Of a DNA stretch of 64,000 bases, positions 16,301 through 60,923 are shown piece after piece. Location: NCBI RefSeq assembly GCF_002113885.1, contig NW_018408774.1, positions 148,164 to 212,163 of the forward strand, in the 5' to 3' direction. The first letter of the stretch is position 1; every line of letters begins with the position of its first letter. Below the pieces are notes generated by a model that had not been told where the DNA came from, made no database searches, and saw only the letters and a program-made list of their open reading frames with translations. The DNA comes from Mizuhopecten yessoensis. Lineage: Eukaryota. The position numbers were made by a program, and so were the translations under genes.

Positions 16301-19300
16301 GGACCTTTGTAGTAACATTGTAGGGACCATCGTAGTGACATTGTAGGGACCTTTGTAGTAACATTGTAGGGACCTTTGTAGTAACATTGTAAGGACCATC
16401 GTAGTAACATTGTAGGGACCTTTGTAGTAACATTGTAGTAACATTGCAGTAACATTGTAGGGACCTTCGTAGTAACATTGTAGGGACCTTTGTAGCAACA
16501 TTGTAGGGACCTTTGTAGTAACATTATAGAGACCTTTGTAGTGACATTGTAGAGACCTTTGAAGTAACATTGTCGGGACCTTTGTAGTAACATTGTAGTA
16601 ACATTGTAGGGACCTTTGCAGTTACATTGTAGGGACCTTTGTAGTAACATTGTCGGGACCTTTGTAGTAACATTGTAGTAACATTGTAGGGACCTTTGCA
16701 GTTACATTGTAGGGACCATTGTAGTAACATTGTAGGGACCTTTGTAGTAATATTATAGAGACCTTTGTAGTGACATTGTAGAGACCTTTGTAGTAACATT
16801 GTAGGGACCTTTGAAGTAGCATTGTAGGGACCTTTGTAGTAACATTGTAGGGACCATTGTAGTAACACTGTAGGGACCATTGTAGTAACATTATAGAGAC
16901 CTTTGTAGTAACATTGTAGTAACATTGTAGAGACCTTTGCAGTAACATTATAGGGACCTTTGTAGTAACATTGTAGGGACCTTTGTAGTAACATTGTAGG
17001 GACCTTTGCAGTAACATTGTAAATATGATCTTGAATTTTAATAGGATCATTATTTCCTGTTGTTTTGAAGTCTCGGCTTTAAAAAAATATCTTTTTTTTC
17101 TTTGGTTGACGTAATGGTGTCTTTTCTACTTTTCAAGGAGTTGCTCCAGTAGACATATTAATTACAACACGTGTATCCATACTTTTCCTCGTTTCACTAG
17201 CCGCCTTCCATACCTCAACATATCTCAAAGCCCTCCTCCCCCATACCTTTTTTTCTTAACAATTATTTCATAGATTTCTATGCCTCCCTCCATACAATGT
17301 CCAACCCCTTTATAATGCCGAAATTTCTTCAGACAAATGATGACAGTATAACAGGATTTTACTGCAAACATTTTCCTACGTAAATACAGAACAAAAACAC
17401 CACAGCGTCAGCACAAAAGGAAAACAATAAGGAGAAAATAAACGAGAAGGCACAAAAGGAAACCAGCTCTAAATAAGTAAATGTTCGCACTCAATGTTAC
17501 TCATTTCCTCTAGACTTTACCATTTGTCTAGACTTTAGATTTTCTCTTGACTTTGCCTTTACTTTAGACTTTAACTTTACTCTAGACTTTATACTTTACT
17601 TTAGACTTTCCTTTTCCTCTAGATTTTAGATTTTTCTCTAGATTTTACCTTTTCTTTAGTCTTTACTTTTCCTCTAGTCTTGACCTTTTTTTAGACTTTA
17701 CCTTTTCTCTAGGGTTGACCTTTTCTTAGACTTTACCTTTCCTCCAGACTTTAGATTTTTCTCTAGACTTGACCTTTTCTTTAGACTTTACCTTTCCTCT
17801 AGTCTTTATACTTTACCTTTCCTCTAGGCTTTATACTGTACCTTTCCTCTAGTCTTTATACTGTACCTTTCCTCTAGTCTTTATACTGTACCTTTCCTCT
17901 AGTCTTTATACTTTACCTTTCCTCTAGTCTTTATACTTTACCTTTCCTCTAGTCTTTATACTGTACCTTTCCTCTAGTCTTTATACTTTACCTTTCCTCT
18001 AGACTTTATACTGTACCTTTCCTCTTGTCTTTATACTGTACCTTTCCTCTAGTCTTTATACTTTACATTTCCTCTAGACTTTATACTGTACCTTTCCTCT
18101 AGTCTTTATACTGTACCTTTCCTCTAGTCTTTATACTTAACCTTTCCTCTGGTCTTTATACTTAACCTTTCCTCTAGTCTTTATACTTTACCTTTCCTCT
18201 AGACTTTATACTGTACCTTTCCTCTAGATTTTATACTGTACCTTTCCTCTAGTCTTTATTCTGTACCTTTCCTCTAGTCTTTATACTGTACCTTTCCTTT
18301 AGACTTTATACTGTACCTTTCCTCTAGACTTTATACTGTACCTTTCATCTAGTCTTTATACTGTACCTTTCCTCTAGTATTTATACTGTACCTTTCCTCT
18401 AGTCTATATACTGTACCTTTCCTCTAGTCTTTATACTGTACCTTTCCTCTAGACTTTATACTGTACCTTTCCTCTAGTCTTTATACTGTACCTTTCCTCT
18501 GGACTTTATACTGTACCTTTCTTCTAGTCTTTATACTTTACCTTTCCTCTTGTCTTTATACTGTACCTTTCCTCTAGTCTATATACTGTACCTTTCCTCT
18601 AGTCTTTATACTGTACCTTTCCTCTAGACTTTATACTGTACCTTTCCTCTAGTCTTTATACTGTACCTTTCCTCTAGTCTTTATACTGTACCTTTCCTCT
18701 AGTCTTTATACTGTACCTTTCCTCTAGTCTTTATACTGTACCTTTCCTCTTGTCTTTATACTGTACCTTTCCTCTAGACTTTATACTGTACCTTTCCTCT
18801 AGTCTTTATACTGTACCTTTCCTCTAGTCTTTATACTGTACCTTTCCTCTAGTCTTTATACTGTACCTTTCCTCTAGTCTTTATACTGTACCTTTCCTCT
18901 AGTCTTTATACTGTACCTTTCCTCTAGTCTTTATACTGTACCTTTCCTCTAGTCTTTATACTGTACCTTTCCTCTAGTCTTTATACTGTACCTTTCCTCT
19001 AGTCTTTATACTGTACCTTTCCTCTAGTCTTTATACTGTACCTTTCCTCTAGTCTTTATACTGTACCTTTCCTCTAGTCTTTATACTGTACCTTTCCTCT
19101 AGTCTTTATACTGTACCTTTCCTCTAGTCTTTATACTGTACCTTTCCTCTAGTCTTTATACTGTACCTTTCCTCTAGTCTTTATACTGTACCTTTCCTCT
19201 AGTCTTTATACTGTACCTTTCCACTAGTCTTTATACTTTACCTTTCCTCTAGTCTTTATACTTTACCTTTCCTCTAGACTTTATACTGTACCTTTCATCT

Positions 19301-21206
19301 AGTCTTTATACTGTACCTTTCCTCTTGTCTTTATACTGTACCTTTCCTCTAGACTTTATACTGTACCTTTCCTCTAGTCTTTATACTGTACCTTTCCTCT
19401 AGTTGTAGGTAGATCAATGTCCCAGTCAGCACCAGACATCAGACAAGTCACCCCCTTCCCACCACAGACAACACGTCGACCCACAGTTTTCCCGAATAAG
19501 CTGAAGACAAGGGGCCATGCATGTGTGGTACATGGTTACTTCAACATTCACGACGAGAAAGCTATAGAAGACGCCAAGAAGAGGCTGGAGACTGATGGGG
19601 AGGTAAACTAAACTTCGTACGAAAACAATCGTTTCTTGAGAGCAGCCCGAATCCTATATTTAACATTCGTATTGCCCAAAGAACGGACATGTACGTCGAA
19701 ACTGGTTGGGATTAGAGAACTAGCGCGTGAAAGATGTGCTCCGGGGAAGAAATTAGTTTCTGGTCTGTCCTGCCACAAAATCTCATTCTGTACAAGATAT
19801 CTTATATAGCAACGATATTTCAACTATATAAAATATCTTAAATTAAATAAGATGCCTTATAAAGTATACGAGATAATGTATATATTATATAATACTTGGA
19901 TTGCCGTAAACATAGTTTGATTTACTCCCAGGGTAAGGATAAATAATCGTTTCGCTGTGAATGACTTGTTTTCATTTTAAATCTGGTTCTAGGACGGAAA
20001 CTGGCTGGTGACGTTAGCAATAAGACAGCCAATGCACTCCATTTGTCTCCACGTTCGGCTACAAAACAAGACCAACTCATTTCCCATCAACAACCTCAAA
20101 GGCGAAAGGATCAGCATCGATACGACAAACAAAAAGGTAGAAATACAAATTTAGCCATTATTGGCCAAGTTATAACTTAATGGTTTGTTTTATGTCATCT
20201 CCCTCACCGCAACCAACTTTATATTGCTCTTTTTATTTACATTTACTTGAAAAGTGTCCCTCAAAATGTCGCTAATACCAACATCAAATTGCTATGCAGA
20301 ATGCAATGAGTGCAATTTAAATATATAACAAACACAGCGCAAGTTATACCTTTTTTCTGGCATACGGATTCTCCGTTATTAGTCCCCCATCGGTTCCCGG
20401 GGGGGAGGGACTATAATTTTGCGCTCCATCCGTCCGTCCGTCCGAGAAGTTTTTCCGGGGCGTAACACCTTTATTATTTCACCTGGAGTAACCAGATTTG
20501 GTGTACAAGGACATCTTGGTATGGCGGAGTACGGAGTGCATAATAAAGGTCACTATGACCTCACTGTGATCTATGCTTTGACCTTTGACCTTTACTTTTG
20601 AAAATGTTTGCCCGGGTCATATATTCTACATTATTTCATCTGGAGTTACCAGATTTGGTGTACAATAACATCTTGGGATGGCGGAGTGTGAAGTATGACT
20701 TGACCTTTGACCTTTAAGTTTTAAAAAGTTTGTCTGGGGCATAACTTCTATACTATTTTACTTGGAGTAACCAGATGGTGTTCAAGGAAATCTTGGGATG
20801 GCGGAGTGCAAGAAGTAGGTCACTGTGGCCTCACTATGACCTATGCTTCCGGACATGAATGTACTTTCGTTAAATATAGAAAGCATCACCGGTGGGGGAC
20901 TATGGATTGCCTTGTTGTAAAAAAGGCTTAAACACAAATGACTTGTTTCTTGCTCATAACTCATATTTCTTTATTATTTCCAATCAGAAATCACATGTAA
21001 CTGACACCATATTCAACTTCATCAATGTATGTTTTGTACTTTTATGTATTATTTTCCAGTCGTTTAAGTGTCTCTGTAAGCTGATCAACTATTACACAGT
21101 GAAGAAAACCTTACCTAACCAGAAAGTCAAGCTGGCTAAGGCTTTTCAACTACAGCAGCGAGGGAGTGGAGTGTATGACTCCTGTACCGAAGTGTCACAT
21201 CTCTGA
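1334..21206 (+). CDS. Uncharacterised multi-exon adaptor-like protein (~603 aa): disordered Tyr/Pro-rich N-terminus with RHIM-like motif, C-terminal degenerate SH2 domain
   Basis: Phase-consistent GT-AG exon chain: 1334-1841, 4082-4272, 5336-5393, 7099-7154, 7384-7840, 8671-8687, 11214-11247, 19403(or 19409)-19602, 19993-20136, 21060-21206 (1812 nt, stop TGA). ATG 1334 has aaccATGg context and an in-frame upstream TAA. The last three exons read HGYFNIHDEKAIEDAKKRLETDGE-DGNWLVTLAIRQPMHSICLHVRLQNKTNSFPINNLKGERISIDTTNKK-SFKCLCKLINYYTVKKTLPNQKVKLAKAF, matching the SH2 pattern (A..LL...DG.FLVR...F..L..LI.YY...L...L). The acceptor at 4081 (AAG) is the weakest junction. Confidence 0.65.
2377..3472 (+). 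mobile_element. SINE-like dispersed repeat carrying an internal 45-bp minisatellite
   Basis: Both flanks of the array align with the reverse complement of 46919-47372, including the 3' tail ggacgttaaacaaaataaaa(g/c)caaacca. Confidence 0.7.
2465..3181. repeat. 45-bp GC-rich minisatellite, ~16 copies
   Basis: Unit ggtagggtaggcaat(t/g)ggttctgtccccaggccgggccataccaa, seen as 15-aa periodicity in the overlapping ORFs. Confidence 0.95.
3576..3863 (+). mobile_element. tRNA-headed SINE (CORE-SINE-like), copy with internal deletion
   Basis: A box tagtttagtggta, B box ggttcgagtc and (ATT)n tail. Near-identical to 56057-56406. Confidence 0.8.
4292..4540 (-). mobile_element. TRIM (miniature non-autonomous LTR retrotransposon) with a tRNA-like sequence in its LTR (Helenus-like)
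   Basis: On the - strand: truncated 5' LTR ending TGTTACA (4540-4506), PBS TGGCGCCCAACG complementary to the tRNA-Lys 3' end (4503-4492), short internal region, polypurine tract AAAGGAAGGAGGAA (4433-4420), then a complete 128-bp LTR TGTAGCG...TGTTACA (4419-4292). Confidence 0.8.
4316..4387 (-). pseudogene. tRNA-like cloverleaf (anticodon AGA, short variable loop) inside the TRIM LTR
   Basis: gaccaga TAGCTCAATTGGTTGAGCG tccgt CTAGAGT tcgga AGGTC CCGGG TTCGAAC CCCGG tctggcc has A and B boxes and all four stems, with single mismatches in the acceptor and anticodon stems. It lacks the long variable arm of a real tRNA-Ser. Confidence 0.7.
5690..5916. repeat. ~36-bp degenerate tandem repeat, ~6 copies
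   Basis: Recurring ttgtccaatcttta(t/a)agacaatattacttcggtca. Confidence 0.8.
6409..7038. repeat. Minisatellite with ~28-bp alternating subunits (~57-bp dimer)
   Basis: agtaacataacagcctccccttctcatt alternates with (a/t)taacacacaaacctcctctccgtact. Confidence 0.9.
8980..9220. mobile_element. Foldback/MITE-like inverted repeat
   Basis: Nested arms: gacaagagtttt/aaactcttgtc, cgatttctcctctttaga/tctaaagaggagaaatcg and ttattcatgttgacaggacaaca/tgttgtcctgtcaacatgaataa. Confidence 0.7.
9441..9812. mobile_element. MITE-like element with duplicated right end
   Basis: TIR tacatagtcagacca / tggtctgactatgta, with a 79-bp direct duplication (9652-9730, 9731-9809) that includes the right TIR. Confidence 0.55.
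13836..15113. repeat. 21-bp pyrimidine-rich minisatellite, ~60 copies
   Basis: Unit ttgttgtcttctctgttccta. Confidence 0.97.
16227..17021. repeat. 23-bp minisatellite, ~34 copies
   Basis: Unit gtagggacctttgtagtaacatt. Confidence 0.95.
17505..19402. repeat. 25-bp minisatellite (~64 regular copies plus a degenerate 5' part) ending at a 3' splice site
   Basis: Unit tctttatactgtacctttcctctag. The last unit abuts the exon at 19403. Confidence 0.97.
19403..21206 (+). CDS. SH2-like domain exons of the + strand adaptor gene (19403-19602, 19993-20136, 21060-21206)
   Basis: Three exons join in phase 0 with canonical sites. The translation follows SH2 secondary-structure spacing: DGNWLVT at the FLVR position and F..L..LINYY at alpha-B. 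Confidence 0.75.
20376..20912 (+). mobile_element. Non-autonomous Helentron/HINE-like element
   Basis: Subterminal inverted repeat gtcccccatcgg (~20382) / ccggtgggggac (~20889), a (TCCG)n microsatellite, and ~3 internal repeats containing ggagt(a/t)accagat. Confidence 0.55.
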
Positions 21207-21774
21207 CCACCCATGTAATGAAGTGTCACATCTCTGATCACTCCTGTACCGAAGTGTCAGATCTCTGATCACCCCTGTACCGAAGTGTCACATATCTGAT
21301 CACTCCTGTACCGAAGTGTCACATCTCTGATCACTCCTGTACCGAAGTGTCACATCTCTGACCACTCCTGTACCGAAGTGTTACATCTCTGATCACTCCT
21401 GTACCGAAGTGTCACATCTTTGATCACTTCTGTACCGAAGTGTCACATCTCTGATCACTCCTGTACCGAAGTGTCACATCTCTGATCACTCCTGTACAGA
21501 AGTGTCACATCTCTGATCAATCCTGTACCGAAGTGTCACGTCTCTGATCACTCCTGTACCGAAGTGTCACATCTCTGAGCACTCCTGTACCGAAGTGTCA
21601 CATCTCTGATCACTCCTGTACCGAAGTGTCACATCCCTGATCACTGCTGTACAGAAGTGTCACATCTCTGATCACTCCTGTACCGAAGTGTCACATCTCT
21701 GATCACTCCTGTACCGAAGTGTCACATCTCTGATCACTGCTGTACAGAAGTGTCACGTCTCTGATCACTCCTGT
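21178..21774. repeat. 31-bp minisatellite, ~19 copies, beginning in the last codons of the SH2 gene
   Basis: Unit actcctgtaccgaagtgtcacatctctgatc. The first unit encodes SCTEVSHL-stop. Confidence 0.95.
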
Positions 21775-22265
21775 GTGACGCGTGCCTCTCAGAGCGGCAT
21801 GTTTTCAGTTTTCTGTTATCAAATGAGACTATGAAAACTTCAAAAATATTTCCTTCCTTTTTTTTTGATAATCTATTTTCTTAGAATTTTAAAACATTTT
21901 TTGGGAATTTTGCCAAAAGCTATGAGAGATTTACAGTGAAACCTGTTTAATTCGACCTTACGGGAGATTGATTGACATAATGATCAGATATGAGAGGATG
22001 CCAGAATACACAGGTATTAATTGTCAGTTTTAATGTTAAATAGGATTACAGGCTTACATGAGATCAGACAGGCGGTCAGGCTACTCAAGGATGTATTAGA
22101 AAACATTAGATGGTGTGTTGTAATACCTAGAGGTCGTACTAGACAGGGTGTCAGAATAACCAGGGTATGTTTTGTGCAGTGTCAGGTTAGACAGGTTTCA
22201 TTGTATTGTTACTACAAACTCGTAAGAGTTGGGCGAGTGGATACAGCTTTGTAAAATAGTTTACT

Positions 22266-22496
22266 TCTCCCGTGGGAGTTAGAGGTTATTGAGTACAGGG
22301 AGACAATCAAATCTCCCGTGGGAGTTAGAGGTTATTGAGTACAGGGAGACAATCAAATCTCCCGTGGGAGTTAGAGGTTATTGAGTGCAGGGAGACAATC
22401 AAATCTCCCGTGGGAGTTAGAGGTTATTGAGTACAGGGAGACAATCAAATCTCCCGTGGGAGTTAGAGGTTATTGAGTACAGGGAGACAATCAAAT
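22266..22496. repeat. 46-bp tandem repeat, 5 copies
   Basis: Unit tctcccgtgggagttagaggttattgagtacagggagacaatcaaa. Confidence 0.95.
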
Positions 22497-24328: not shown

Positions 24329-24420
24329 TTAACTCATTCACCCCTGAAATTTCATAATGAGCTATTCCAACACACGAATTGGAGGAGTTCAAATGTGTCT
24401 TCAGGGGTGAATGAGTTTAA
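24329..24420. mobile_element. ~90-bp MITE flanked by TTAA
   Basis: TIR actcattcacccctgaa / ttcaggggtgaatgagt. An inverted second copy lies at 27229-27319. Confidence 0.7.
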
Positions 24421-24687
24421 GGTCATTGATATTGTGAAAGTTGCAGTAGTTTATCTTGGGAACCTACAGGTTAAAATTAGCCCTAGGCCATATGGTATGG
24501 TGGAAGATTCCTAATAGTTCTTCTTAAAATAGGTCAAGGTCATTGATATGAGGGCTTCATAGCACTAGCCAAAAATCAGGTCCCGTTTTCACGCTCAAAC
24601 TCAGGTTCTGTGCTCAAATCCAGTACCTAAATCCAGGGATAAATTTATAACTAACACAATGTCATTAATCCGGAAAAATGCTCGAGA

Positions 24688-46500: not shown

Positions 46501-49500
46501 ACAAAATACAATCACTTCTGTCCAATGAAATGATAACATGGTGTTAAACAAATCACAACAATAGGAGATGATGTTGTTCTACAAAGAAGATTGTTTCATA
46601 TATCTCCCAGGTATGTTTTCTTCTTTAATCACCTTTTGTTTATTATCTAATTCTGCTTTATTGATTGTTTTGTTGAAGTATTCAGGTAACACAGGATTGA
46701 TATATCCGTAGTGCTATACATGACTAAATAGACCAAGGTCTTCAGCAGGCTTTATAAATCATCAGCTGCCAATTCTGGTAAGTTCTTATAACCTACAATG
46801 TTGATAAACCTTTGACTGAAGTAATGTCTTTGTCAGTTAAATACTTACCTTGTAATTATTGGCTACAATTTGAAAGTATGACACAATTTTCTGTGTGCTG
46901 ACAATGGAAGCTTTGAAATTTGGTTTGGTTTGGTTTTATTTTGTTTAACGTCCTATTAACATCTAAGGTCATTTAAGGACTTGCCTCCGTGTATGTTGTG
47001 TAAGCATGCATGTGTGTATGTGTGCCCGAGACAGGATATCTTTGTGCAGTTGCCTCCTTGTGATAGCACGTATCTGTTGCCGACTTTATAGTGCTATCTC
47101 ACTGAAATACCATGCCGAAGGCACCCAGCACAGCATTCCGCCCGGTCACATTATACTGACAAGTTGACAACAGATGAACCAGTTGTTGCCATTCCCCTAA
47201 ATGTTGAACGTTAAGCAGGGAAAAAACCACTACCATTATTAAGGACTTTGGTATGTTCCAGGCCTGGAGACAAAACACATTGCCTTCCTCACCTGAGCAA
47301 ATGCTCAGCATTAAAGCCAAACCTGAGGTATTGCCAAGCAAGGCGCTGGGAAATAAAAGGTAGTTAGAAGTATAGAGATATATTAAGATCCCAAATTTTG
47401 TGATGGATGCAGTAGATTTATTTTGGTTGCCTTTGTGTCCCCAAATAGAGGACAACAAAGCAAATCCCCAATTCTGCAGGGGTTCCCCACATTAGTCGCC
47501 TCCAACGATTACATGCTGTAGGTACCAGCAGGTGTATTCTTTTCTTGATCCCCGGCCTGGAAGCTTTGACATGTTAACCTACTGAGTACTGAACTGTAAT
47601 TAACCTTTAAAGGTTTATTGGATGATGCTTCATTTACACGTATTTTTGTGTGGTGTCGGTCAAAATGAAAATGTGTTCATCAATGATCGCACCAAAGCAA
47701 GGGACGTTATCAGAAGTTAAACCATTACATGGATTATACAGAGGAAAAACAGTGTTTCAAGGAAACATTATATCACCTGATAGCGACATTAAACAGCCCG
47801 ACATCAAGGAATATGTACTGTACTGAAATATTTGAATATCTGAAAGAATCTGTTCATCGTTTGTCCCCAACTTTGAATCCTAAGCTTCTTCAAATGATCA
47901 GACTTTCTGTAAACAAAGAATGATCACAGAACGTGATTTTTTTTGGAAGTGTCATAAAACATTACCTGTTGTTTCTAAAAGCTAGCAGCTCGAGGTTGAG
48001 TAAATCTGTGATGTCCAGTTTGGTGTCCGGACACCTGGCCAACAGCTGGTCACCTAAAACCCTGCAAATGAGAAAAAATATTAAATCAAGAAGAAGTCAA
48101 ATAGAATCTGACCATGGGAAATGGTAGTTAAACCCTGTAAAATCAAATGGTCACAAGAAAAATCTCAACATAGTCAAAAAGATGAAACCCAATAAAAATA
48201 TATTATAGTCAGAAGAAACTTTGGTATCAACTTCTGCAAAAATCGTTCTATATTACCGGCAATGATGAGGCTCAAACAATGTTAAAAGTTTACTCTATAA
48301 AATTAGCATAAAGGAACACAAATATTTCTATACAAAAAGGTGATCCCCCAATATATTATTTTCCCAGAACTTAATTGTAGGAATCAATGCAAATTAGTGT
48401 TGATTTATGACTTTGAACAATTTGGAGGGGGCAGGATGGATTTTAACAACACTACATGCAACTGCAACCATATAATGGTACAAGTCATAAAAAAACATAC
48501 AAGTCCAAATCTTACATCTGTTTGACAGTGTTGGTTTCGTTTTTGATGGCTTCTTTCTTGGTTCTCACCCACAGCTTGACAGCTGAGGTCATGTGACTGG
48601 AATCTATCAGCAGACAATTCTGGATCGTCTCCATGGCACTCGGTAAATCTCCACACTTCTTTTGGCAATCTGATAAACACTCGTACACCAACCATAAGGA
48701 GACCTGTAACAAAAGACCGAACAGTTACACGGCTGCTTTCTTAAACAATCATAATGTCCAGACATGAACTCATGACTAACGAGATTTTTTTTTTCTCCGA
48801 TTCAAAGTCAACCCAACCCCCTCTACACTGTCATACTATTTTATGATAATGCCCCTTTTTTTTGTTTTGTAGTAACTTCTTTTCTTGATTTTCCTTGTGA
48901 ATTACAGTTTAGCTTTGAGTAAACTTGTGTAATATCACAGAGGTATCTCAAAAGAAGTATACAATATCAAAGTTAACAGAAGATGCCTTTTTAATACAGA
49001 AATCATTTTCGAGAGACCCACAGGACCATTGGTTTCAAATAACCCTTCAAATCTTGTAGAATTAAAACAATTCTGCTAACTAAAAAATTATTGTTTGCTG
49101 ACTTAACACTTTGGAAATTTCCTCCTAAACAGTGAATTGAATTCCATACTTCAGCCATGGAAACATGTCTTTCTCAAACTGACGATACGGTTAAAGTTTT
49201 AGCCCTAGAGAAATCTAACCTCCTGAAGCCTCTGTTGTGTGAGTGACACATCGGATTTCACCCACTGGGTCAGCTGACGACAAGAGATGGTGTACAGTTT
49301 GCAGGCAGAAGTGTTATCTCCCTTTGTAGAGTACAGATGACCAAGCTTGGACATGAGATAACCTGAAATGATAGTGATGGAAATACAGTGTATAACAAGA
49401 TGTCTACCCATGCAAAATGTTTCTGCCAATAATATCACATAATTTCACATTAAATAAACTGCATTTTTATGTTACCGTAGGTTTAAAAATCTAATTCATT

Positions 49501-52500
49501 TTTATGTATTTAAATATATATATAGGTAATGAAGTTGAAACTATTTCAAACTATCAATAATACAGGCAAAATGTTTCTGCCAATATCACATAATTTCACA
49601 TTAAATCCACTGCATTTCCATGTTACCGTAGATTTAAAAATTTAATTTATCTTGGTATTTAAATATGAGAGTTCATGAAGTTGAAATTATTTCAAACTGT
49701 TTGTTCAACCTGCAGATTTTGGCCAAGATAGTTAAGATCAAAACATGTCAAAAATTCCACCAAAAAGTATCAAATATGCCCCATTTTCATTTATAAAACA
49801 ACATTAATGCTAAAATGTAAAGATACTTGTCAAAAACTTTAACCTAAAGGAAACAGCTGGCAGGACTGACAGATGAACAATTGCAGACAAAACTTATAGT
49901 CCCATGGTTTCACCAAAAGGGGGCTAAAAAAATGTTCCTACCACAATAGTGTCTCTCTTGATTAAGTTTCTTTGTGGACCAGTCTAAGGCATCTGACTCC
50001 AGTATTGTATTGTAGCGGTCGGACAGTTCTATCACAGTCTCCATAAAAAACAGGTACGAGTCTCCTTCTGCAAATACAAGGATTTGGAACCACTTACATA
50101 ACAAGACAGTTGAAACTACAATAATTCTATTTGATACTAGTTATCATTTTTATTGTAGCACAACAACTTCGCTGATCTGTGTATTGGTATTCTTACCAAA
50201 TTGATGTGGGCACATCAGAAATTATTTTAAAACTGAACTTTAATTTCTTCCAATACTAAGGTGTAAAGTAACATTGCACATTGTTGTCCATATTGCTGAA
50301 GAAATGATTTTGATAGGAAAATACATGTTTTTGAAAACTTTCTTTTTTATCATAATCATTAGAAAAAATCTTTTTGGATTATTTGTATAGATCTATAAAC
50401 AAACCTTGAGTGTCTTTCAGATATTTGAACAAGATTCGTAGACAAAGTTGTAGATGTTCTACTGATGCAGACTGTTGTTGACCAATCTCAACATCTGCTG
50501 AAAACGAAGCAGCTCCAATCTTCAAAATTTCTCGAACAGTTTCAACAGCAGGAAAGGGAGTTAAATTTTCCATATGTTTCAGCAGAAGTGTGACCATGTC
50601 ATGGATGAATGTCTTGCAGGTCTGTGGCCAGGATGTATAACTATTGTCAAAGGAACTACAGAAAATTTCACTTACATTGGACAACTGTGAAGCAATCTTT
50701 TTCCCACACTTTCCAGTTGTACCCTTGAATAACAAATCCACTACCAGAAAGAGATTTTTAACAACAGAAAAAGCATCTGATACTTGACAAGTAACATTCA
50801 ATTTTGTTTCTTCCAATATATTTTGACAATCACTGATCTTATTTTGAAGAGATCTCTGTAGAATGTACTTAAAGAGGCCTAAAAAGACAGAGAGCAGACT
50901 CCAAGCTTCAGCTTCCGTAGAGAAACCATCTGAGGCCCGTTTGATGAGACTCGACAGAAGATCCTGGGTCAGATCCACATACATCTCTGCGTCTGTGTAC
51001 ATGCCTTTGTCCCTGTACTGAACAGTCACTCTGTCATATCTGACAAAATAAAAACAACACTCAAATTTAAAAGACCTGCACTTTCCCTTTTACAAATCAG
51101 TAAGCCATGGCTTATCAACTTGAAAGTCAAACTTAACAAGGAACACATACCAATTATTTTTCTACACATTACATTACAAAAGAAAATTGATTTTTTATAA
51201 GTTCTGAACACATTGCATACTGTATATGTATATATAATACCAGTATTATTTATTGAAATAATCTTTTATCAAGTTCCCTCTCCTTTTTCTAAACTTATGA
51301 TATAATTGACAAAACAAATACTACAATCTAAAACCATTAACTTTTTAATCACATTTCTAAACTGATTACATGTATTACAAATGTATTTAGATAGTTTGAT
51401 TCTGGTCATCACCTGCTAAATGCCACGAGGTATTTTTCCACAAACACAGCGACAGTAGATGGGCCCAACAGAAGTGTTTTCAGGGCTGCATGTCTTAGTT
51501 TAAGCACAGTGTCTGGTGAGCCGTTACTCTGGTCCTGTTCCAGTTTGGCTGCCACGTTCCACAGGTAACTGTAGGTGTTGTGTATAATGGTATCCACGTT
51601 ACCGGGCGTCGCCTCAATGTTGTAGGATAACTCATCATGTAAGTGTTCAGCAATGGTCAGCTGACTTTCTGGAATTCCCTACAAGAGACAAATTAATAGT
51701 TCTTGCAAAAATTGTTAGTTTTGTTTATTTGTGTTTTACGTCCTATTTAACAGCTATGGTAATTTAATATAAGAACATGCCAGGTTTTGGTGGTGGAGGA
51801 AAGTCAATGTTCTTGGAGAAAAACCACCAACCAACGGCCAGTACCTAACTGCCCCATGCAGGCCTCGAACCCGTGACCCAGTGGTGGAGGGCTAGTGGTA
51901 GCAGGATGTCAAGACGCCTCAACCACTTGGCCACTGCAGCCCCATAATTATTATTTTTTGTAGAAAATGTCAATCAGCCTTTAAAAAAACTTACCATCCA
52001 AAAGAGTACCAATTAATAATGCAATTGAACATTAAAATGCATTTTTTTTATAATCTCAATTATTCTTATATTTCTTTTTAGGGTGTGATATCTATTTCTT
52101 TTGATTTATATTTAAAATTATTTTGATTATACAACCTTTTGTGGGAGTTTAGTAAGGAGATGGTACAGAAGCTTCAACACGGTCAAAGGTTCATTCAGCT
52201 TGACTTCCTCCCTGGCAACCTTGTATCCTAGGTAACAGCTACAGACAGCTTGAAGAAGACTTGTAGATTCTCGACTGCTGCTCACATGGGATACAGATGT
52301 GTGGAGGAACTTGACTGTATACAATCCATACTTGGATTTGTCCTCCCTTTCAGCAGGATTCTTTTTACACAGCAGTGGAGACAGGTAGTTCTAGACGAGA
52401 AATAATTCAAAAAGACAGAAGTTTAATATAGTTTAACATGTTGTACATATGTTTCAGTACTTTCCAGAAGTTATTTCAATATCTTAAAAAAGAGTATCGG

Positions 52501-53272
52501 CACTTGGACTAACATTATAAACCTGTTCATGTTTAAATTGTTGTGATTTGTGTCTTGCTGTATTATTCAATATTCTTCAATATTTTTCTTATTTACCAAA
52601 AAGGTGCCCTTAAATCCTATTCAAATTTCTTAAGTAATGAAACTACTTGGTACCAATTATTGGGTTGTAAGGGAAATTATCTGATTATTAGTTATTTTCA
52701 GTGTTTGAATCATGTAGTGACGTATTCCTTGCCTTTCTTTTGAAACTCCTATAATTATATAACACGTCCATCCACAGGGATAATCCTGGAGTGGGGCCAT
52801 TGATCCCCCCTTCCCATCTTTCAATTTAATTCTAATTTTACATAGAATGGCCCCTCTTAATTTTGATATTGACCAACCAAAAAATTGCTGAAAATGACCC
52901 ATTGCTCTCAAATACCATGATATTCCTTCATCCATACGTTATCGCAACCCCTCTTTTCAAACAGAAGAAATTGGTGAATTACTGAACTACAGTGGGCGGG
53001 GCGTTTAACTTTTCGAACATTTACACAACGTACATCAGAATTTATTTCATCCTGTTTGAAAAGTGCATCTGTTTACTACCTAAAATCAATGCTAAGTTCC
53101 TGATCAATGTGAATATCAACGATAAACCGTAAGTTAACTTATCAGCCACATAACTGAATAAGTCAGTCTGTCAAAATATATTGTAAACAAACGGCCAAAT
53201 AACCTCGATGTCTTGTCCGATGGTTTCATGGTTTCCAGACTGCAAATCGGACAAGAAAAGTTGTCCTGCCAT
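28507..53272 (-). CDS. ESPL1: Separase (separin, peptidase family C50), ~2396 aa, 26 coding exons
   Basis: Exons (- strand): 53272-53204, 52390-52136, 51678-51413, 51039-50405, 50067-49942, 49362-49220, 48703-48516, 48061-47966, 46458-46327, 45928-45799, 45123-44824, 44306-44058, 43553-43295, 42214-42058, 41310-39188, 38374-38123, 37173-36948, 35763-35456, 34564-34440, 34124-34008, 33782-33612, 31867-31679, 31148-30928, 30289-30206, 29487-29323, 28711-28507. All are GT-AG and phase-compatible (7191 nt). Diagnostic motifs: EWWKVRRGLDDRM, LVLDK..QHLPWESIP, YCGHGSG (catalytic His), LMGCSSG (catalytic Cys), NLWDVTDRDIDRF, YLIGSAPVVYGFP. Confidence 0.96.
30500..30835 (-). mobile_element. Dispersed repeat (HINE-like), same family as 58880-59370
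   Basis: Reverse-complement matches at both ends (aagccattc...gatatgtcttg and ccttagtct...gctacttc). The 58880 copy has more ~160-bp internal units. Confidence 0.6.
32252..33617. repeat. 44-bp minisatellite, ~31 copies, containing the donor site of a separase exon
   Basis: Unit ccctaagggttggagttcaccggaggttataatgtttatacaca. On the - strand each unit has CTTAGG|GTGTGT, identical to the donor at 33612/33611. Confidence 0.95.
34751..34942. mobile_element. Near-perfect 192-bp palindrome (MITE-like foldback)
   Basis: ctattccgtctttgcgtattgcagagttatcttctcttgtgagca...tgctcacaagagaagataactctgcaatacgcaaagacggaatag, with arms of ~75 bp. Confidence 0.85.
36813..36948. repeat. 47-bp tandem repeat, 3 copies, starting at a separase donor site
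   Basis: The - strand reads AG|gtaagccaacactcaaggtggaac followed by units ttg gtgagccaacac...aaggtggaactttacatcagatcaaac. Confidence 0.85.
37595..37838. repeat. 41-bp tandem repeat, ~6 copies
   Basis: Unit gtaaagtaataccacagttaaacactaatattacttatatg. Confidence 0.9.
39188..41310 (-). CDS. ESPL1: Giant 2.1-kb separase exon encoding the central Lys/Ser/Thr-rich disordered region
   Basis: Covers the 719-aa ORF 39147-41306. Acceptor tttcag at 41311 and donor G|gtaggt at 39187, in phase with the flanking exons. Confidence 0.9.
41795..42103. repeat. Alternating 50/51-bp repeat, 6 copies of a separase exon end plus donor
   Basis: cttaccag occurs at 41801, 41851, 41902, 41952, 42003 and 42053. On the - strand the unit is gggagggctggcaactctctcac(c)acctctgtctaccctactg|gtaagtac. 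Confidence 0.95.
43700..44030. repeat. Degenerate ~31-bp tandem repeat
   Basis: aaacctttatatattgacacactctgtcacag and decayed variants. Confidence 0.7.
46919..47372 (-). mobile_element. SINE-like dispersed repeat, same family as 2377-3472, with a single 45-bp unit
   Basis: Shared sequence on both sides of the unit at ~47248-47293 and a (AAACC)n-type tail. Confidence 0.7.
49411..49700. repeat. ~155-bp direct duplication
   Basis: gcaaaatgtttctgccaata...gaagttgaaa.tatttcaaact is present twice. Confidence 0.75.
51722..51943 (-). mobile_element. tRNA-derived SINE-like element
   Basis: The - strand reads ggggctgcagtggccaagtggttgagg...cgggttcgaggcc...ggtggttttctcc, with a tail taggacgtaaaacacaaataaacaa resembling the 46919 family tail. 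Confidence 0.6.
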
Positions 53273-53618
53273 ATCCACACGGAATAGGCTCTTCGGGCAG
53301 CCACTGCACCGTTTCTAGTTCATAAATATTCGATGTTTGACAGTATCCATTTCAATGTTCCCGCTCAACGTGTTTAAAATGGCCGACGTTGACTGCGGAA
53401 CTGACCGGAAATACACTATGATTTAAATTATTTATTCATATTCTTCAACATATCAGAGATCCAAACATTAAAATGTTCAAAATAATAATATCCTTTAACT
53501 GATCGATATTTATATATTTATAATAAATAACTGTTCTAACTTGTTTGACGTTGTAGTTTCTGTTTATAACTTCCGGTCATAACATTGCAGTGCGTTTGGG
53601 TGGTCCACACATGAAATC
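53273..53618. promoter_or_regulatory. Putative bidirectional promoter between ESPL1 and CFAP410
   Basis: The two start codons diverge 346 bp apart. The interval has a YY1-type AAAATGGCCG (53376-53385) and two ETS-type sites, ACCGGAAA (53404-53411) and ACTTCCGGT (53569-53577), motifs typical of bidirectional promoters. Confidence 0.7.
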
Positions 53619-56600
53619 ATGGAATACCAGGAGGAAAAACTGACCGAAGCACTCGTTCTTGCCAGGACAAGAGCAATAGACCTTGAAAGCGTCACGAAAT
53701 TAAATTTCTGGTAAACCTTATTGAAATGAAATATCTAACGTTGTTTTGACTTGAAGTGAAACAAAACACTGGAGTTTGGAAAGCAAAAATTAAAATAATT
53801 TACTTAGACAATACTCAGATACCTCTATAGGATATTTATTGGATCTGTAAGAGTCATTATTGATTAAATTATGTGACCGTAAATTCTTCTGATCATCATC
53901 GATCGCGGCATATAACATTTGTCAATCAGCACCAATATTACTGCCATTCACAGGCGCCTGCATCTTCACTGTAAGGTGACAGTACCCAAATCCGATCAAC
54001 AAACCATCATTTTATTCATTCATTGAAAATTCTGAGAATGAACTATATTACTTTATGGTTGTATCAAAGGAAGTCTATCGATGGGTGTTTATACAAAAAA
54101 AAAATAGCACCCCAGGCTCAAGTGAATTATTTTTAGAACGCTCTGAAGTCGCCTATCAGCGGTTCCATTTTTTGCGAATGTCAGGACCCAAATAATCGGA
54201 ACAAGGCTTGAATTTTGCAGTATCTTACACTTCAAATGAACAACTTCACTGTAATGTTACACATGTAAACCAAACAAGAAATAGAGTAGTGTGCTACCAC
54301 CGACGATTGAACCAGTGATCCTCAGCCTCCTAGTCCACGGCTGTGCTAGTCGAGTGCAAGAATATATCCCTCGAGTGTAAAGCTGAAACAGTGACCATCA
54401 TGCATCCTATGCTACTCCAACAGTGTTAGAGGTTTTGACAGGTGCAGTGTAACCGGCAAAATCATATATTCGATAGAAAAGGGCCGACCAGTGGCCTCTT
54501 ATTTATAGGAGAAGTATCCTATGTACAATTAAAACCTCCGACAAATGAATAAAAAAGGGGTTAAATTATAGACATTGGAACCTGATGATTTCTGTACAAA
54601 AAAAATATTGTTGAAAATTATCGAAACAATTTTAATGAAGTGCAGTAATGAAATGTCTTATAGAAACATATATAACACCCATACTGAAATAACTGAATAC
54701 TGATGTGGTAGATTTTAATTGTACATAGAATTACAGTCACTTTCTAGCTTATTGCTAGAGGGACTTTCCACACTCCACGGTGGAAGCACATACATTGCTC
54801 TTTTTCCAAATGGTGACCATGGTCTTTGTTGTGTGTGAGGGTGAACACATTTAAAAAGGGGAAGTAATGCAGCTGATTTTATAAAATTATGGTTGCCTTA
54901 TTAAGAAGTCTACAGTTACAGGTTTGATATCCCCTGTTGGGTTAGATATCCCCTGTTGGGTTTGGTATCCCCTGTTGGGTTAGATATCCCCTGTTGGGTT
55001 TGGTATCTCCTGTTGGGTTTGATATCCCCTGTTGGGTTAGATATCCCCTGTTTTAAAAGCGCTACTCTCTTTCCTGTTACACTGAGGCGTCAGTATCCCA
55101 TCCCAGTATCCCACCACCCAACGAGACTGAAGAAATAAACCAATCCAAAATGACTGCTGGAAGCTGAAACTTTTGTTCGATTTGAGAGAACTGTTCATTA
55201 TTTGTGTAACAGGAGAGGAAAAATGCACGGCCAGACCATGGTTAAGTTTAATACCTTGATTAAAATCCTTTAATAAATATAAATGAGTACAAACCTAACA
55301 TCTCAAAGATTAAAGCATAATGTCTGTCAATAAAAACACAAAGCAAATTGTTAAAAGTACTGTATCTCCCTATTTGTTAATTTTATTTGTATTGAGTAAA
55401 CATTAGTGTAGTAGTGTCAATCAAAATATCCACATATATCCACACATATCCACACACATGTCCACATATATCCACACATATCCACACATATCCACATATA
55501 TTCACAAATATCCACATATATCCACACATATCTACATATATCCACACATATCCACATATATCCACATATATCCAAACACACATACCCACACACACATATC
55601 TACACATATCCACATATATTCACATATATCTACATATATCCACATATATCCACACACATATCTACACATATTCACATATATCCATACATATCCACATATA
55701 TCCACACACACATATCCACATATATCCACACACACATATCCACACATATCAACTAAGAGGTATATCCTAATACTTTGACTGGTATATTCTCTTTTTGTTA
55801 TGCTTCAAGTAGTTCCCCATCCAAATACCATTCTTATGTTAATTTTTTGAAGATTGTTTCATAAATGTTCATGATATATGTTGATAGAATACAGTATTCT
55901 TATTGTAATAACACACATACGGAAATGAACCCTAACATATCTATTGCACTTCAGTAAAAATTCCAACTGATGCTATTTTGTGGTGCTGTAATTAATAACT
56001 TTGGGTCGAACATGGGTGTTGGCCAGTGTGCTTATTGAAGGATAAGTTTGGTATAAGGAGGCACAGTAGTCTAGTGGTAGGACGCCGGGCTCGCGACCGA
56101 AGGGTTGCGGGATCGAGGCACGGCACTGTGTTGTATCTTTGAGCAAGTTACTTAACTCAGCTTGTTCCAGTCTACTCAGCTGTAAATGAGTACATGGTTG
56201 GGCAGTGCTAGAATTGTAGAACACTAGCTGTGAGTGCCGAAATGGCAGCACCGGCTGTATGCTCCTCATGGAGTTTAGAAAGATATTGGCTGGTTGCAAA
56301 GGCCCTATAACCATGGATAATAATTTGTGAACCGCTTTCAGACGACCTACAAACTAGGTTATGATTAAGCGGTAAATAAGAACCTCAAATTATTATTATT
56401 ATTATTACATTCTAGTATGACATATCACTATACAGTTTATGTAAATGGAAGAAACATTATATATTGCATGAAACATGAAAATATGAGGTTATCTTTTATG
56501 AAATTTTCTTTATTTTATGTACAGGGGTTCCGATATTGACAATGTCAGTGTGGTACGCAAAATGCCTAACCTAGAAGTATGTAGCCTGAGGTAATTATAC

Positions 56601-59600
56601 ATTTATATATTAACCTGTCAAAGATCACGTGATAACTATGGAGCATCATGATTTATGTACAGTTTATGATTATAAAATCTGTATGAAAATTGTATTTATT
56701 ATTTTCTTAAGATGTTTAATGTTAGTATAATTGACCAATTCATAAGTCTCTATTGGCAGAAACATTACAATGTATAATGAGATTGTTATTGAAATGAGGT
56801 AGATTTCCTTAGAGTGTTAAATATTGGTTGGTTGGTCAACATGCAGACTGCTTGTACATGATTTGTGTGTTGACATGTACACTAGCTGGTAAATCTACCT
56901 TTGTTTTTATCTAACTAAATGATAAGGATGTTATATACTTGACTTACAAATCAAAGCCATCTTTTTAAATCATATTTGATTTTAAAACAGTCATCTTTGT
57001 CTGATATGCACAAATCAATGAATTGTTAATATCGTTTACAGTGTCAATAGCATTAAGACGTTGGAGGACTTTTCCTACTGTCCAAATTTACAAGAACTTT
57101 ATATTAGAAAAAATAAGATTGAAGACCTATCAGAAATCAATCATCTTGCCACGTTGCCACGGTTACGGAATCTATGGCTTGCTGACAACCCATGTGCGGA
57201 GACAGAAAACTATAGATCAAATGTTCTCAAGACACTGCCAACCCTACAGAAATTAGACAATATTGGTAAGTCTGTCTCTCCGTCGATCATGGTGTGCAGA
57301 TCGGTGATACTTATTGATATATTATCATTAAATATTGTATTTAGCAAATCTTGAAATTGTGTTTCCCTGTTAATAATGTATGAATACTCTTGTCTTGTTA
57401 AAACAACTGAATCACATTTTGGCCCAAATCGTGTAACTTCACTGTACATCTAGTATACACTGTTCATGGCCATTTCCAAGTTTGTCTATATATGCTTGAC
57501 TGGGCATGTTATTGTATGGATTTGAATTGTCTTTCCATATGCTGTAAAGTACTTTAATTTCACTGTGTCAGATTTTTGCGTTTTCGTACCTGGAACTTAT
57601 TCGCTGGGTCTTAAATTCACATTACTAGCTAGGTGAGCATTTCAAGCCTCTTGGATGCGTTAACATTGTGGTTTAATGATGTCAGAAGCATTCAAAGTGG
57701 GATGAAGTTACATACATTGACCTTTTGGAGTCATTATTTAATTCATGAAATCATTAATCACCAATTTTATGATGTATCAGGGTCAGTCATTGCCATCATT
57801 AACAGTTGTTATTAGTATATATATTATATATTGCCTTACTCCTTTCAGTCGTAACAGAAAGTGAAAGATCTGAATTTGCTGATACTGAACTGCTTGAGAA
57901 CAACACTGAGGACCCGGACCCTGAGACGACAGGTGCAGGGATCGCTGGTATAGAGGATTCAAGTTCAGACCTCACAGAAATAAAGGATGACAGAGAACCA
58001 GAAACCTCGTTCGTTGATAAGGATCCAGAACTGGCCGGAAACTCGAGACACATGAACTTAAATGGTGATAGAGAGGCAGAGAAATCTCCTGATGAATCTG
58101 AAACAGAGGTCAAGGCTGAAACAGAGGTCAAGGATGAAACAGAGGTCAAGACTGAAACAGAGGAGAAGTCTGAGGTGAAGGACAATGACCCAAAGCCACA
58201 TAAAAGTGCTGCACTGGATCCTGTAACACTGACATGGGAGGAAACAAAGTGAGTCAGACTAGTTTCAGTGGTACTGTATAGGTAGTCCACATGTATTTGG
58301 GTTTTTGTCTCACTGTAGTCCACATGTATTTGGGGTTTTGTCTCACTGTAGTCCACATGTATTTGGGTTTTTGGCTCACTGTAGTCCACATGTATTTGGG
58401 GTTTTGTCTCACTGTAGTCCACATGTATTTGGGTTTTCGTCTCGCTGTAGTCCACATGTATTTGGGTTTTTGTCTCACTGAAGTCCACATGTATTTGGGT
58501 TTTTGTCTCACTGTAGTCAACATGTATTTGGGTTTTTGTCTCACTGAAGTCCACATGTATTTGGGTTTTTGTCTCACTGTAGTCAACATGTATTTGGGTT
58601 TTTGTCTCACTGAAGTCCACATGTATTTGGGTTTTTGTCTCACTGTAGTCAACATGTATTTGGGTTTTTGTCTCACTGAAGTCCACATGTATTTGGGTTT
58701 TTGTCTCACTGTAGACGACATGTATTTGGGATTTTGTCTCACTGTAGTCCACATGTATTTGGGTTTTTGTCTCACTGAAGTCCACATGTATTTGGGTTTT
58801 TGTCTCACTGTAGTCGACATGTATTTGGGTTTTTGTCTCGCTGTAGTCCACATGTATTTGGGTTTTTGTCTCACTGAGATGAAGTAGCGGAAGCAAGACT
58901 AAAGTGTTTTTTTCCGGCAGTGTCAACATTAAGTTTTTGCGTTTAAGTTAGGTTTACTGAAAGTATAAGTACTGGACCAACCAAAGGTGGACCATAGATC
59001 TATGCATCTTGGGTAGTTCATACCAACCCATGCATCAAATGCGGGATGCGGCCTACCTTTCATGGTCCTTTGACTTTGTCAGCATCTCCATCAACATTAA
59101 GATTTTGTGTTAAAAAACTGTAAGTGCTAGACCAACCAAACTTGGACCAGAGATGCATCTTAGGTAGTACATACCAACCCATGCATCAAATGCTTGATAC
59201 GGCCTAGCTACCTTTCATGGTCCATTGACTTTGTCAGCATCTCCATCAACATTAAGTTTTTGCATTTAAGTTAGTTTCTCTGAAACTATAACTGCTAGAC
59301 CAAACTTGACATGTGCATTGATGGTCAAAGCAGGCCACAGGCAAGACATATCATTCTGAATGGCTTGTTTTACGTTTCAATGACACTCAACAGGGAATCT
59401 AATTTTTGGATCCTTTTATGGCTTCTCAAGAAATTCACTTATTAATGAAAGTGCTCCATGAGACTATGCAAATATAGAGTAAGGTATGAATGATTACTGG
59501 AAACCATTTGTTGTTGATGCTACTTTTATTTATAAATGTGTCAGATTTCAACAGGAATTGGTTTGCTACTGAAGTCATGAACATGAGTCAAACTATGTTT

Positions 59601-60769
59601 CCAGCCAATTTTCAAAATTTATATTTTCATTGAAGGCCATAAAGGAGGGTTTTCAATTACAAAAATATTTTAGCCAATCGGGGCAATAACTATTTTAAAT
59701 CATTTTAGCGCAGTAAACTCAAATAAAAGTAAGGATAAAAAGATCTAAATTTTCTAATTTTGTGTCACTATGCCATATGGGGGGCTGAGTGAGACTATAT
59801 GGCTCAAAGGGCTTCTGCCGTCATACAAAGTAGATCACACTCATGTGTTTTAGCGGCCCGTAGATAGTTATGTAGGATATGAATAAAGTGCAAGTAGTTT
59901 CAAAAGAATTAAATATTACAATAGCTTTTGATGGATTAGAAGATACAAATGTACAAAATAGTTTTTTTTTAAATGTTTGTGTTACACTCAATTTTTATAT
60001 AATTTCAGTAAAATTCGACAAGAGGTTGGATTAAAGCCGTTACCTTACGAGAAGATTACATCTACTAGGCCTGTTCCTGGTAGTGCAATGACGTCACGGG
60101 TAAGATACCATTTCTTCAGAGTTTATTTAATACATGAACATTATATGTTCTATGTAAGGGTGGTTGGATGGTGCAGTGGATAGCGCGCTTCCCTTTCACC
60201 AAGGCGACCAGGGTTTGATTACCCGATTAAATGTGAAAAGATATGGGGTCACTGCCTGACTGTGTGGGTTTTCTCTGGGTACTCCAGTTAAGAACAGACA
60301 CACACCCCTTACCTTACCTAGGCATGATATAGCTAACATGGGATTACATTACCTATCAGGGGCCAAGTTAAAAAAGTATCAACAACTTACCACAAAATTT
60401 AAAATGAGTATATTTTCAAATGTATCGAAATTCAAAGCTCAAGTTCTATGTGTAAAGTTTTCTAATGATTTTCTAATGAGAAGAAGCACAAAATATTTGT
60501 AAATTCTTAGATATTTCACAAAAACATTATTTTAAAATTTTGCATTAATTCTGATTATTTAAATATTCAACAAAGCATACATAGTGTATTAAACTCAACA
60601 AATGTGTACAAGTTTGTCTTTTGTGGGTTATATTTGACTATAGCATATTGATGTGTTCCAGAATGCCCATGTACTACAGGCAGTGTTGATACTGATACGA
60701 GAGTTAGACGATGACAGTCTGGAGACGATACAATACGCCATACAGAGGAAGCTCAACCCACCTTCTTGA
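53619..60769 (+). CDS. CFAP410: Cilia- and flagella-associated protein 410 (C21orf2/LRRC76), LRR protein, ~326 aa, 6 exons
   Basis: Exons 53619-53710, 56525-56590, 57042-57265, 57849-58248, 60009-60099, 60662-60769 (981 nt). The N-terminus [85 protein letters not shown] and the C-terminus [21 protein letters not shown] match the C21orf2 LRR/LRRcap and C-terminal helical domain. Confidence 0.93.
54921..55052. repeat. 19-bp tandem repeat, ~7 copies
   Basis: Unit gggtt(a/t)gatatcccctgtt. Confidence 0.9.
55205..55237 (-). mobile_element. Fragment of the same TRIM LTR 3' end
   Basis: tgtaacaggagaggaaaaatgcacggccagacc is identical to 4506-4538. Confidence 0.7.
55426..55750. repeat. (ATCCACATAT)n-type 10-bp simple repeat
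   Basis: Directly visible in the sequence. Confidence 0.95.
56057..56406 (+). mobile_element. tRNA-headed CORE-SINE-like element
   Basis: tRNA-like head, central ctttgagcaagttacttaactc...ctcagctgtaaatgag resembling the MIR/CORE domain, and (ATT)n tail. A second copy lies at 3576-3863. Confidence 0.8.
58282..58877. repeat. 33-bp minisatellite, ~18 copies
   Basis: Unit gtagtccacatgtatttgggtttttgtctcact. It explains the 376/206/198-aa repetitive ORFs. Confidence 0.95.
58880..59370 (+). mobile_element. Dispersed repeat with ~160-bp internal tandem units (HINE-like)
   Basis: Internal repeats caacattaag...catgcatcaaatgc...gactttgtcagcatctccat. The related copy is at 30500-30835. Confidence 0.6.
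60160..60290 (+). mobile_element. Degenerate SINE-like fragment
   Basis: tggtgcagtggatagcgc...agggtttgattacc head followed by gtgggttttctctgggtactccagtt. A similar core occurs at ~22615-22693. Confidence 0.45.
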
Positions 60770-60923
60770 TCACCATCGCAGCAACTTCCCTAACTACACA
60801 CAACAGCACCAACAGTCTGGAGATGATACAGTACGCCATACAGAGGAAGCTCAACCCACCTTCTTGATCACCATCGCAGCAACTTCCATAACTTCACACA
60901 ATGGCACCAACAGTCTGGAGACG
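60714..60923. repeat. 98-bp tandem duplication (2.1 copies) spanning the CFAP410 stop codon
   Basis: acagtctggaga occurs at 60714, 60812 and 60910, with a TGA copy at 60767 and 60865. Confidence 0.9.

What the first reader, a model, noticed from the sequence alone, without database searches (positions are those of the whole stretch)
17505..60923. Tandem arrays repeatedly built from the genes' own splice sites and stop codons
Seen in all three genes: six arrays whose terminal unit overlaps a functional signal. These are an acceptor (17505-19402), donors (32252-33617, 36813-36948, 41795-42103) and stop codons (21178-21774, 60714-60923). Each extends away from the coding sequence and leaves the protein intact. 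Inference: either a mutational process that nucleates amplification at exon edges, or ubiquitous local duplication filtered by selection so that only outward-growing arrays survive. Either way the spliceosome must pick one of up to ~60 near-identical sites, so array length could act as a tunable splicing/NMD control or a route to intron sliding.
Basis: partly seen in the sequence, partly recalled or inferred. Interest (0 to 1): 0.7.

Follow-up and report, generated by a model that had tools for sequence, protein, structure and literature searches.

The report
Scallop splice-site "mirage" repeats, counted
In this scallop about 8 in 100 sampled introns carry head-to-tail copies of their own splice signal, and the assembled RNA seen uses only the original signal, so these are likely tolerated copying by-products of a type known from lancelets and humans, with a mild unexplained excess at exon edges.

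Summary
Assembled RNA uses the original site at the four splice arrays (three joins seen, one inferred). This is the known "mirage" minisatellite type (lancelet Adh3 and globins; human F7 VNTR), and this scan noted it before in this genome and in other animals. "Outward growth" is geometry: the first donor, first stop and last acceptor always rebuild the old gene. An independent test on 803 introns of 18 dynein genes found 39 donor and 25 acceptor mirages against 24 expected each (1.6-fold, 1.0-fold), so the window (4 of 78 sites) is typical. Selection shows clearly: coding DNA is almost array-free, acceptor units always hold at least 21 intron bases, and no unit holds more than 51 exon bases. 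An edge excess remains (1.8-fold within 50 bases of splice sites, about 3-fold among tolerated geometries), only partly explained by GC. Nothing supports a splicing or NMD dial or intron sliding here; rare decoy use and copy numbers are untested.

The parts
17504..19403 (+). Acceptor mirage: 25-bp unit x 65 (17778-19403) plus a degenerate far end; the unit is the last 25 intron bases ending in AG; the real AG is the last one (19401-19402)
21178..21774 (+). Stop-codon array: 31-bp unit x 19.3; first copy holds the last 26 coding bases and TGA (21204-21206)
32252..33617 (-). Donor mirage of separase exon 21: 44-bp unit x 31, 6 exon + 38 intron bases; 25 decoys with the same 9-base donor as the real one (last exon base 33612)
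36808..36948 (-). Donor mirage of separase exon 17: 47-bp unit x 3, 1 exon base; two decoys much weaker than the real donor (0.4 vs 8.3 bits); first copy 45 or 47 bases by allele
41793..42103 (-). Donor mirage of separase exon 14: units alternate 51/50 bp x 6.2, 46 exon + 5 intron bases, 8-base terminal repeat; five decoys equal to the real donor (last exon base 42058)
60714..60923 (+). Stop-codon duplication of CFAP410: 98-bp unit x 2.1; first copy holds the coding end and TGA (60767-60769)
1334..21206 (+). 10-exon gene, 603 aa, identical to P0002; a UniRef name of its isoform P0001 says SH2 domain-containing, Pfam finds no family
28507..53272 (-). Separase (ESPL1), 26 modelled coding exons, about 2,400 aa, Peptidase_C50
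53619..60769 (+). CFAP410-like LRR gene, 6 exons, 326 aa, identical to P0271

Best explanation
These are 'mirage' minisatellites: short local duplications, common all over this genome's non-coding DNA, that happen to span an exon edge, likely expand like any minisatellite, and likely persist only when splicing or translation still uses the original signal. Shown: arrays are mostly locus-specific and occur about once per 1.6 kb of intron; coding DNA is nearly free of them; RNA contigs use the first donor and the last acceptor; surviving units keep enough intron sequence beside the working site and little exon sequence. Inferred: birth by slippage or template switching at short direct repeats; growth by unequal exchange; first-donor choice by 5'-3' scanning as in human F7 and last-acceptor choice by exon definition; rare errors removed by NMD; the 2-3-fold edge excess coming partly from higher GC and partly from better retention at protected edges.
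For: Window: one search shows joins 35763/36948 (X6, X11, X14) and 41309/42057 (X6, X14), and contigs of X6, X11, X14 that leave the stretch at 33610; one search shows the exon ending 11247 joined to the last AG in X6, X13, X14. Dynein sample (803 robust introns of 1123 predicted, 18 genes): 337 purely intronic arrays, 39 donor and 25 acceptor mirages, 24.0 expected each. One genuine array in 189,582 coding bases against about 100 at the intron-interior density of 0.53 per kb. Acceptor units hold >=21 intron bases in 25 of 25 (47% expected <=20, P=1e-7); donor units >=9 in 39 of 39 (P=4e-4); exon part <=51 bases in 64 of 64 (P=3e-6). Only 2 of 64 mirage units hit another sampled region. GC predicts 1.5-fold at donors and 1.2-fold at acceptors. 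Literature: PMC3087553, PMC3902484, PMC1557585.
Against: Within the tolerated geometry mirages are 3.4 times the interior rate on both sides, more than GC gives. Purely intronic arrays within 50 bases of a site are 1.8-fold denser (gene bootstrap 1.4-2.3), where GC predicts 0.87-1.03, and have more copies (median 5.1 vs 3.2). The drop beyond 50 bases is sharp, which simple retention does not obviously predict. The geometry thresholds were chosen after seeing pass 1. The window's 42058 array has only 5 intron bases per unit, below the dynein minimum of 9; its 8-base terminal repeat keeps 13 original intron bases, which may explain it. 35 of 39 donor and 20 of 25 acceptor arrays keep a decoy as strong as the real site, so decoys are not purged. 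RNA evidence is contigs, which drop rare forms.
Confidence: 0.72

Rival explanations
1. Exon edges are true mutational hot zones for tandem duplication and expansion, for example because allelic homology ends there in a highly polymorphic genome and recombination intermediates slip, or because of transcription or chromatin at the boundary; selection then trims the result. Not exclusive of the best explanation.
For: 3.4-fold excess in tolerated geometry on both sides, 1.8-fold for purely intronic arrays within 50 bases, higher copy numbers at edges; holds in unique DNA and in 336 junctions shared with paralogs (0.92 vs 0.56 per kb, P=0.006); 6-mer microhomology is not higher at edges.
Against: Raw enrichment is small (donor 1.6, bootstrap 1.06-2.28; acceptor 1.04, 0.65-1.49). 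No polarity of homogeneity toward the exon (n=22 and 12). Retention at protected edges and dilution of intron interiors by younger DNA were not excluded; only 11% of the sample could be masked as interspersed repeat.
Confidence: 0.2
2. Array length is a selected dial for splicing or NMD, or a step in intron sliding.
For: Many decoys are as strong as the real site. In human 6-16 and CBS the nearest pseudo-sites are used (PMC1557585 introduction). A model of intron gain from mirages is proposed in PMC3087553. Human tandem repeats do associate with splicing changes (PMC10078293, passages).
Against: Only the original site appears in RNA contigs. Nearest-decoy use gives a stop or frameshift in 38 of 39 and 24 of 25 arrays, and in the window at all four arrays. 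Arrays occur in 63 of 803 introns at close to background rate, mirage junctions are shared with paralogs as often as others (27 of 63 vs 309 of 740), and no dynein exon was found extended by a mirage.
Confidence: 0.06
3. The arrays are assembly artefacts.
For: The assembly is fragmented (82,659 contigs) with N gaps in the sampled regions (0-19%). No long reads were examined.
Against: Copies differ from each other and show higher-order structure (51/50 alternation). Contigs of run X11 (another study) break at the array edges 41822 and 42074 and one holds copies of the acceptor unit. X10 breaks at 33588 and 41822 but may be the source of this DNA.
Confidence: 0.02

Closest known systems
Amphioxus 'mirage' minisatellites (Adh3, globins BflGb6 and BflGb9, troponin C, PGBD5); PMC3087553 and PMC3902484, passages read
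   Same: Tandem copies of the gene's own intron-exon boundary, at both donor and acceptor sides; units of tens of bases; many copies keep AG/GT; normal splicing is kept.
   Different: Here in a bivalve; up to 65 copies (3-6 in BflGb6); two cases span stop codons; frequency and geometry were counted against a null, which the passages read do not do.
Human F7 intron-7 37-bp VNTR, with 6-16, CBS, LAMIN B2 and PDGF cases; PMC1557585, abstract and introduction read
   Same: First unit spans the exon-intron boundary (4 exon + 33 intron bases in F7; 6 + 38 at 33612 here); identical pseudo-donors follow; only the most upstream is used in F7.
   Different: Donor side only in that paper; rare in human, about 5% of donors in this scallop sample; scanning was shown by mutagenesis there and is only inferred here.
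Variable internal tandem repeats at exon-intron boundaries of human segmental-duplication genes; PMC2812944, passages read
   Same: Minisatellite-sized units at exon-intron boundaries.
   Different: Those create new introns and alternative transcripts; no such change was seen here.

Membership tests
Mirage minisatellite | Tandem unit spans an exon-intron boundary of the host gene | tested here: met
   Four arrays: exon/intron parts 0-1/25, 6/38, 1/46, 46/5. Two of them include at most one exon base.
Mirage minisatellite | Extra copies keep AG or GT signals | tested here: met
   71 acceptor, 25, 2 and 5 donor decoys
Mirage minisatellite | Regular splicing is not disturbed | tested here: met
   RNA contigs use the original site; the 33612 join is inferred because the partner exon lay outside the stretch; rare forms cannot be seen
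Mirage minisatellite | Unit is locus-specific, not a dispersed satellite or transposon part | tested here: met
   None of the six hits another of 18 sampled regions; this is 1.8 Mb of a 988 Mb genome
Mirage minisatellite | Copy-number instability between alleles or in soma | tested here: inconclusive
   Only a 2-base difference in one copy was seen (36933, X10 and X11); contigs cannot count copies
Mirage minisatellite (stop-codon arrays 21178 and 60714) | Unit spans an exon-intron boundary | tested here: not met
   These span a coding/3'-UTR boundary; same process likely, not mirages in the strict sense
Splicing-regulating tandem repeat (spl-TR) | Allele length changes splicing | not testable with these tools
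   Needs matched genotypes and raw RNA reads; no decoy join seen in contigs

The most novel reading that the evidence does not exclude
Exon edges are genome-wide hot zones of tandem duplication and expansion in scallops, two to three times the intron interior, driven by a process anchored at the boundary (such as the end of allelic homology), and the thousands of surviving mirages map in vivo how much intron and exon sequence the spliceosome needs to ignore a perfect decoy: at least about 21 intron bases at acceptors, at most about 50 exon bases on either side.
Probability: 0.3. Interest if true: 0.65.

Novelty: new member of a known kind. Interest (0 to 1): 0.36.

Why it matters
The type is known, and the lancelet paper calls its mechanism unclear (PMC3087553). 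What this adds is a count with a null. If the dynein rate holds, about 8% of scallop introns carry decoy copies of their own splice site, a large natural experiment in splice-site choice. The survival rules (acceptor units need the pyrimidine tract and branch region, exon parts stay short) are directly testable with existing long-read and RNA data. For these six loci the practical message is that they are ordinary.

Tried and rejected
1) I first took 19417-21206 for a three-exon gene with a 5'-UTR acceptor; RNA and P0002 showed it is the end of a 10-exon gene. 2) A candidate separase exon at 46897-46849 broke the frame and was dropped. 3) Polarity of homogeneity toward the exon: none. 4) Unit length mod 3 at donors was skewed (24/10/5 for remainder 2/1/0) but did not repeat in less certain junctions (5/9/5) and the simulation already expects 40% remainder 2; treated as chance. 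5) Depletion of in-frame, stop-free decoys (2 of 64; simulation 14% and 10%; P=0.018 and 0.27) is weak and could come from my junction filter. 6) Microhomology density does not explain the edge excess. 7) A near-shift test for intron sliding among paralogs was uninformative because most junctions have a paralog junction within 15 bases. 8) Stop codons: 0 of 10 dynein stops overlapped, one array starts about 40 bases downstream; too few to test. 9) Papers not held, so not read: Canestro 2002 (PMC117041), Gao and Lynch 2009, Zhuo 2007; known to me only through the citing text of PMC3087553. The classic in-vitro duplicated-splice-site experiments are recalled and were not found. 10) Searches for a mollusc or genome-wide mirage count found none; the library lacks most subscription journals, and no supplements were opened.

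Full report
Source. The window is G000:C5447:148164-212163 of a 988-Mb, 82,659-contig genome. Proteins identical to my gene models are named Mizuhopecten yessoensis, the Yesso scallop, by their sources. Three genes lie in it: a 10-exon gene equal to P0002 (1334-21206, +), separase (53272-28507, -; Peptidase_C50) and a CFAP410-like gene equal to P0271 (53619-60769, +).

Observation. TRF reports 43 rows, 28 array clusters. Five clusters contain a modelled coding signal: donors 33612, 36948, 42058 and stops 21206, 60769. The sixth ends at AG 19401-19402. In one search the loose ends of X6, X13 and X14 before 19401 are the exon that ends at 11247, so this AG is the working acceptor of an 8.15-kb intron and the last of 76 AG in the array, 71 of which score within 1 bit of it or better. 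In one search contigs join 35763 to 36948 (X6, X11, X14) and 41309 to 42057 (X6, X14), the first donor in each case. At 33612 contigs of X6, X11 and X14 leave the stretch at 33610; the two extra letters are GT, which also starts the next exon, so first-donor use is inferred, not seen. The tool only guesses that these runs are RNA; the spliced joins show it. Contigs drop rare forms. Other scallops end CFAP410 at the same place (P0272, P0274), so the stop duplication did not change the protein.

Geometry. A tandem duplication across a donor leaves the first copy preceded by the whole exon; across an acceptor it leaves the last copy followed by the whole exon; across a stop the first stop ends translation. 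Each therefore looks as if it grew outward. Orientation carries no information. What selection can act on is which site is used. In the window, use of the nearest decoy gives an immediate stop at 36948 and 42058 (phase-2 GTAA) and a frameshift at 33612 and 19403.

Independent test. The window was picked for this pattern, so I tested elsewhere. A family search located 18 dynein heavy-chain loci; I fetched 100 kb around each and aligned dynein profiles with my own spliced aligner in two passes. Of 1123 pass-2 junctions, 803 were identical in both passes and free of indels within 8 codons; 320 were set aside. Of the 803, 336 fall at exactly the same profile position as a junction in a paralog, against 9.5% by chance. 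The null is the chance that a position in collapsed intron DNA lies within one unit of a purely intronic array.

Result. Donor mirages 39 of 803, acceptor mirages 25 of 803, expected 24.0 each (P=0.003 and 0.44). With all 1123 junctions: 63 and 33 against 32.3. In unique DNA: 38 and 24 against 20.7. In the 336 shared junctions: 16 and 11 against 9.9. Gene-level bootstrap: donor 1.06-2.28, acceptor 0.65-1.49; 63 of 803 introns carry one, some with 40-60 copies. At these rates the window should have 3.1 and has 4. It is typical.

Selection. One genuine array lies in 189,582 coding bases (a second listed row is a misalignment), against about 100 at the interior density of 0.53 per kb. All 25 acceptor units hold at least 21 intron bases, where 47% should hold 20 or fewer; all 39 donor units hold at least 9; none of 64 holds more than 51 exon bases, where 19% should. 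The thresholds were read from pass 1, so the P values are optimistic. The reading is inferred: the last acceptor works only if the unit carries its pyrimidine tract and branch region, and a long exon part would make a decoy competitive. The window's 42058 array, with 5 intron bases per unit, falls outside the donor range; its 8-base terminal repeat preserves 13 original intron bases. Decoys are not purged: 289 of 394 donor and 220 of 334 acceptor copies keep the dinucleotide.

Edge excess. Purely intronic arrays within 50 bases of a site are 1.8 times denser than farther in (1.4-2.3) and have more copies. Among tolerated geometries mirages are 3.4 times the interior rate on both sides. GC-rich units are over-represented in intron interiors, which predicts 1.5 at donors and 1.2 at acceptors but about 1 for the near-edge intronic class. 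Microhomology and polarity gave nothing. So some edge effect is real. Its cause is open: retention at edges protected from deletion and insertion, or a mutational process tied to the boundary. It concerns edges, not the signals.

Mechanism, steps marked. Shown: local origin of units (2 of 64 hit another region; none of the six), frequency, geometry limits, original-site use in contigs. Inferred: birth by slippage or template switching, growth by unequal exchange, first-donor scanning as demonstrated for human F7 (PMC1557585), exon definition at acceptors and NMD of errors (general knowledge, recalled).

Comparison. Tandem copies of intron-exon boundaries were named mirages in lancelets and reported not to disturb splicing (PMC3087553, PMC3902484; passages). 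Human F7, 6-16, CBS, LAMIN B2 and PDGF carry donor-side cases (PMC1557585; abstract and introduction). Earlier notes of this scan report the same type in this genome and in annelid, comb jelly, urchin and octopus-like DNA (unchecked AI notes). My searches found no mollusc report and no genome-wide count, within a library that lacks most subscription journals.

Limits. One gene family, homology-predicted junctions, a gapped assembly that may lose or collapse arrays, no long reads, no raw RNA reads.

Verdict. Real, known in kind, ordinary at these six loci. The count, the survival rules and the modest edge excess are the additions. Interest 0.36.

Noticed in passing
window 19403-19412: A stronger AG (4.9 vs 0.0 bits) lies 6 bases inside the exon, outside the repeated unit; the deepest contig of X11 begins at 19407, as an in-frame alternative acceptor at 19408 would predict. 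A weak hint only.
   Followed up: partly
window 43888-44058 and 58248-58876: Two more arrays start 34-35 bases into the intron after a donor; at 44058 degenerate copies seem to reach back to the donor, as an aged mirage might.
   Followed up: partly
window 2459-3181: A GC-rich 45-bp array that a database model (P0001) translates as an N-terminal repeat, probably a prediction artefact; its unit also hits the C2871 region, so it is a dispersed repeat.
   Followed up: partly
window 36933: Runs X10 and X11 carry two extra bases in the first, donor-bearing copy (47 instead of 45 bases).
   Followed up: no
window 51528: RNA contigs of X6 and X14 carry a 6-base in-frame insertion and several substitutions in separase exon 3: a divergent allele.
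   Followed up: no
window 53272-53619: Separase and CFAP410 start codons are about 350 bases apart, head to head, suggesting a shared promoter.
   Followed up: no
window 58098-58163 and 39456-39502: Two short in-frame coding repeats (18 bp in CFAP410 exon 4, 21 bp in separase exon 15).
   Followed up: no
G000:C5330:90001-190000 and G000:C5316:130001-230000: Dynein loci rich in mirages: 7 in 22 and 8 in 57 robust introns, with arrays of 57-63 copies.
   Followed up: partly
dynein sample, intron interiors: Array units with GC above 46% are 2.8 times over-represented relative to intron background; cause or consequence of expansion is unknown.
   Followed up: partly
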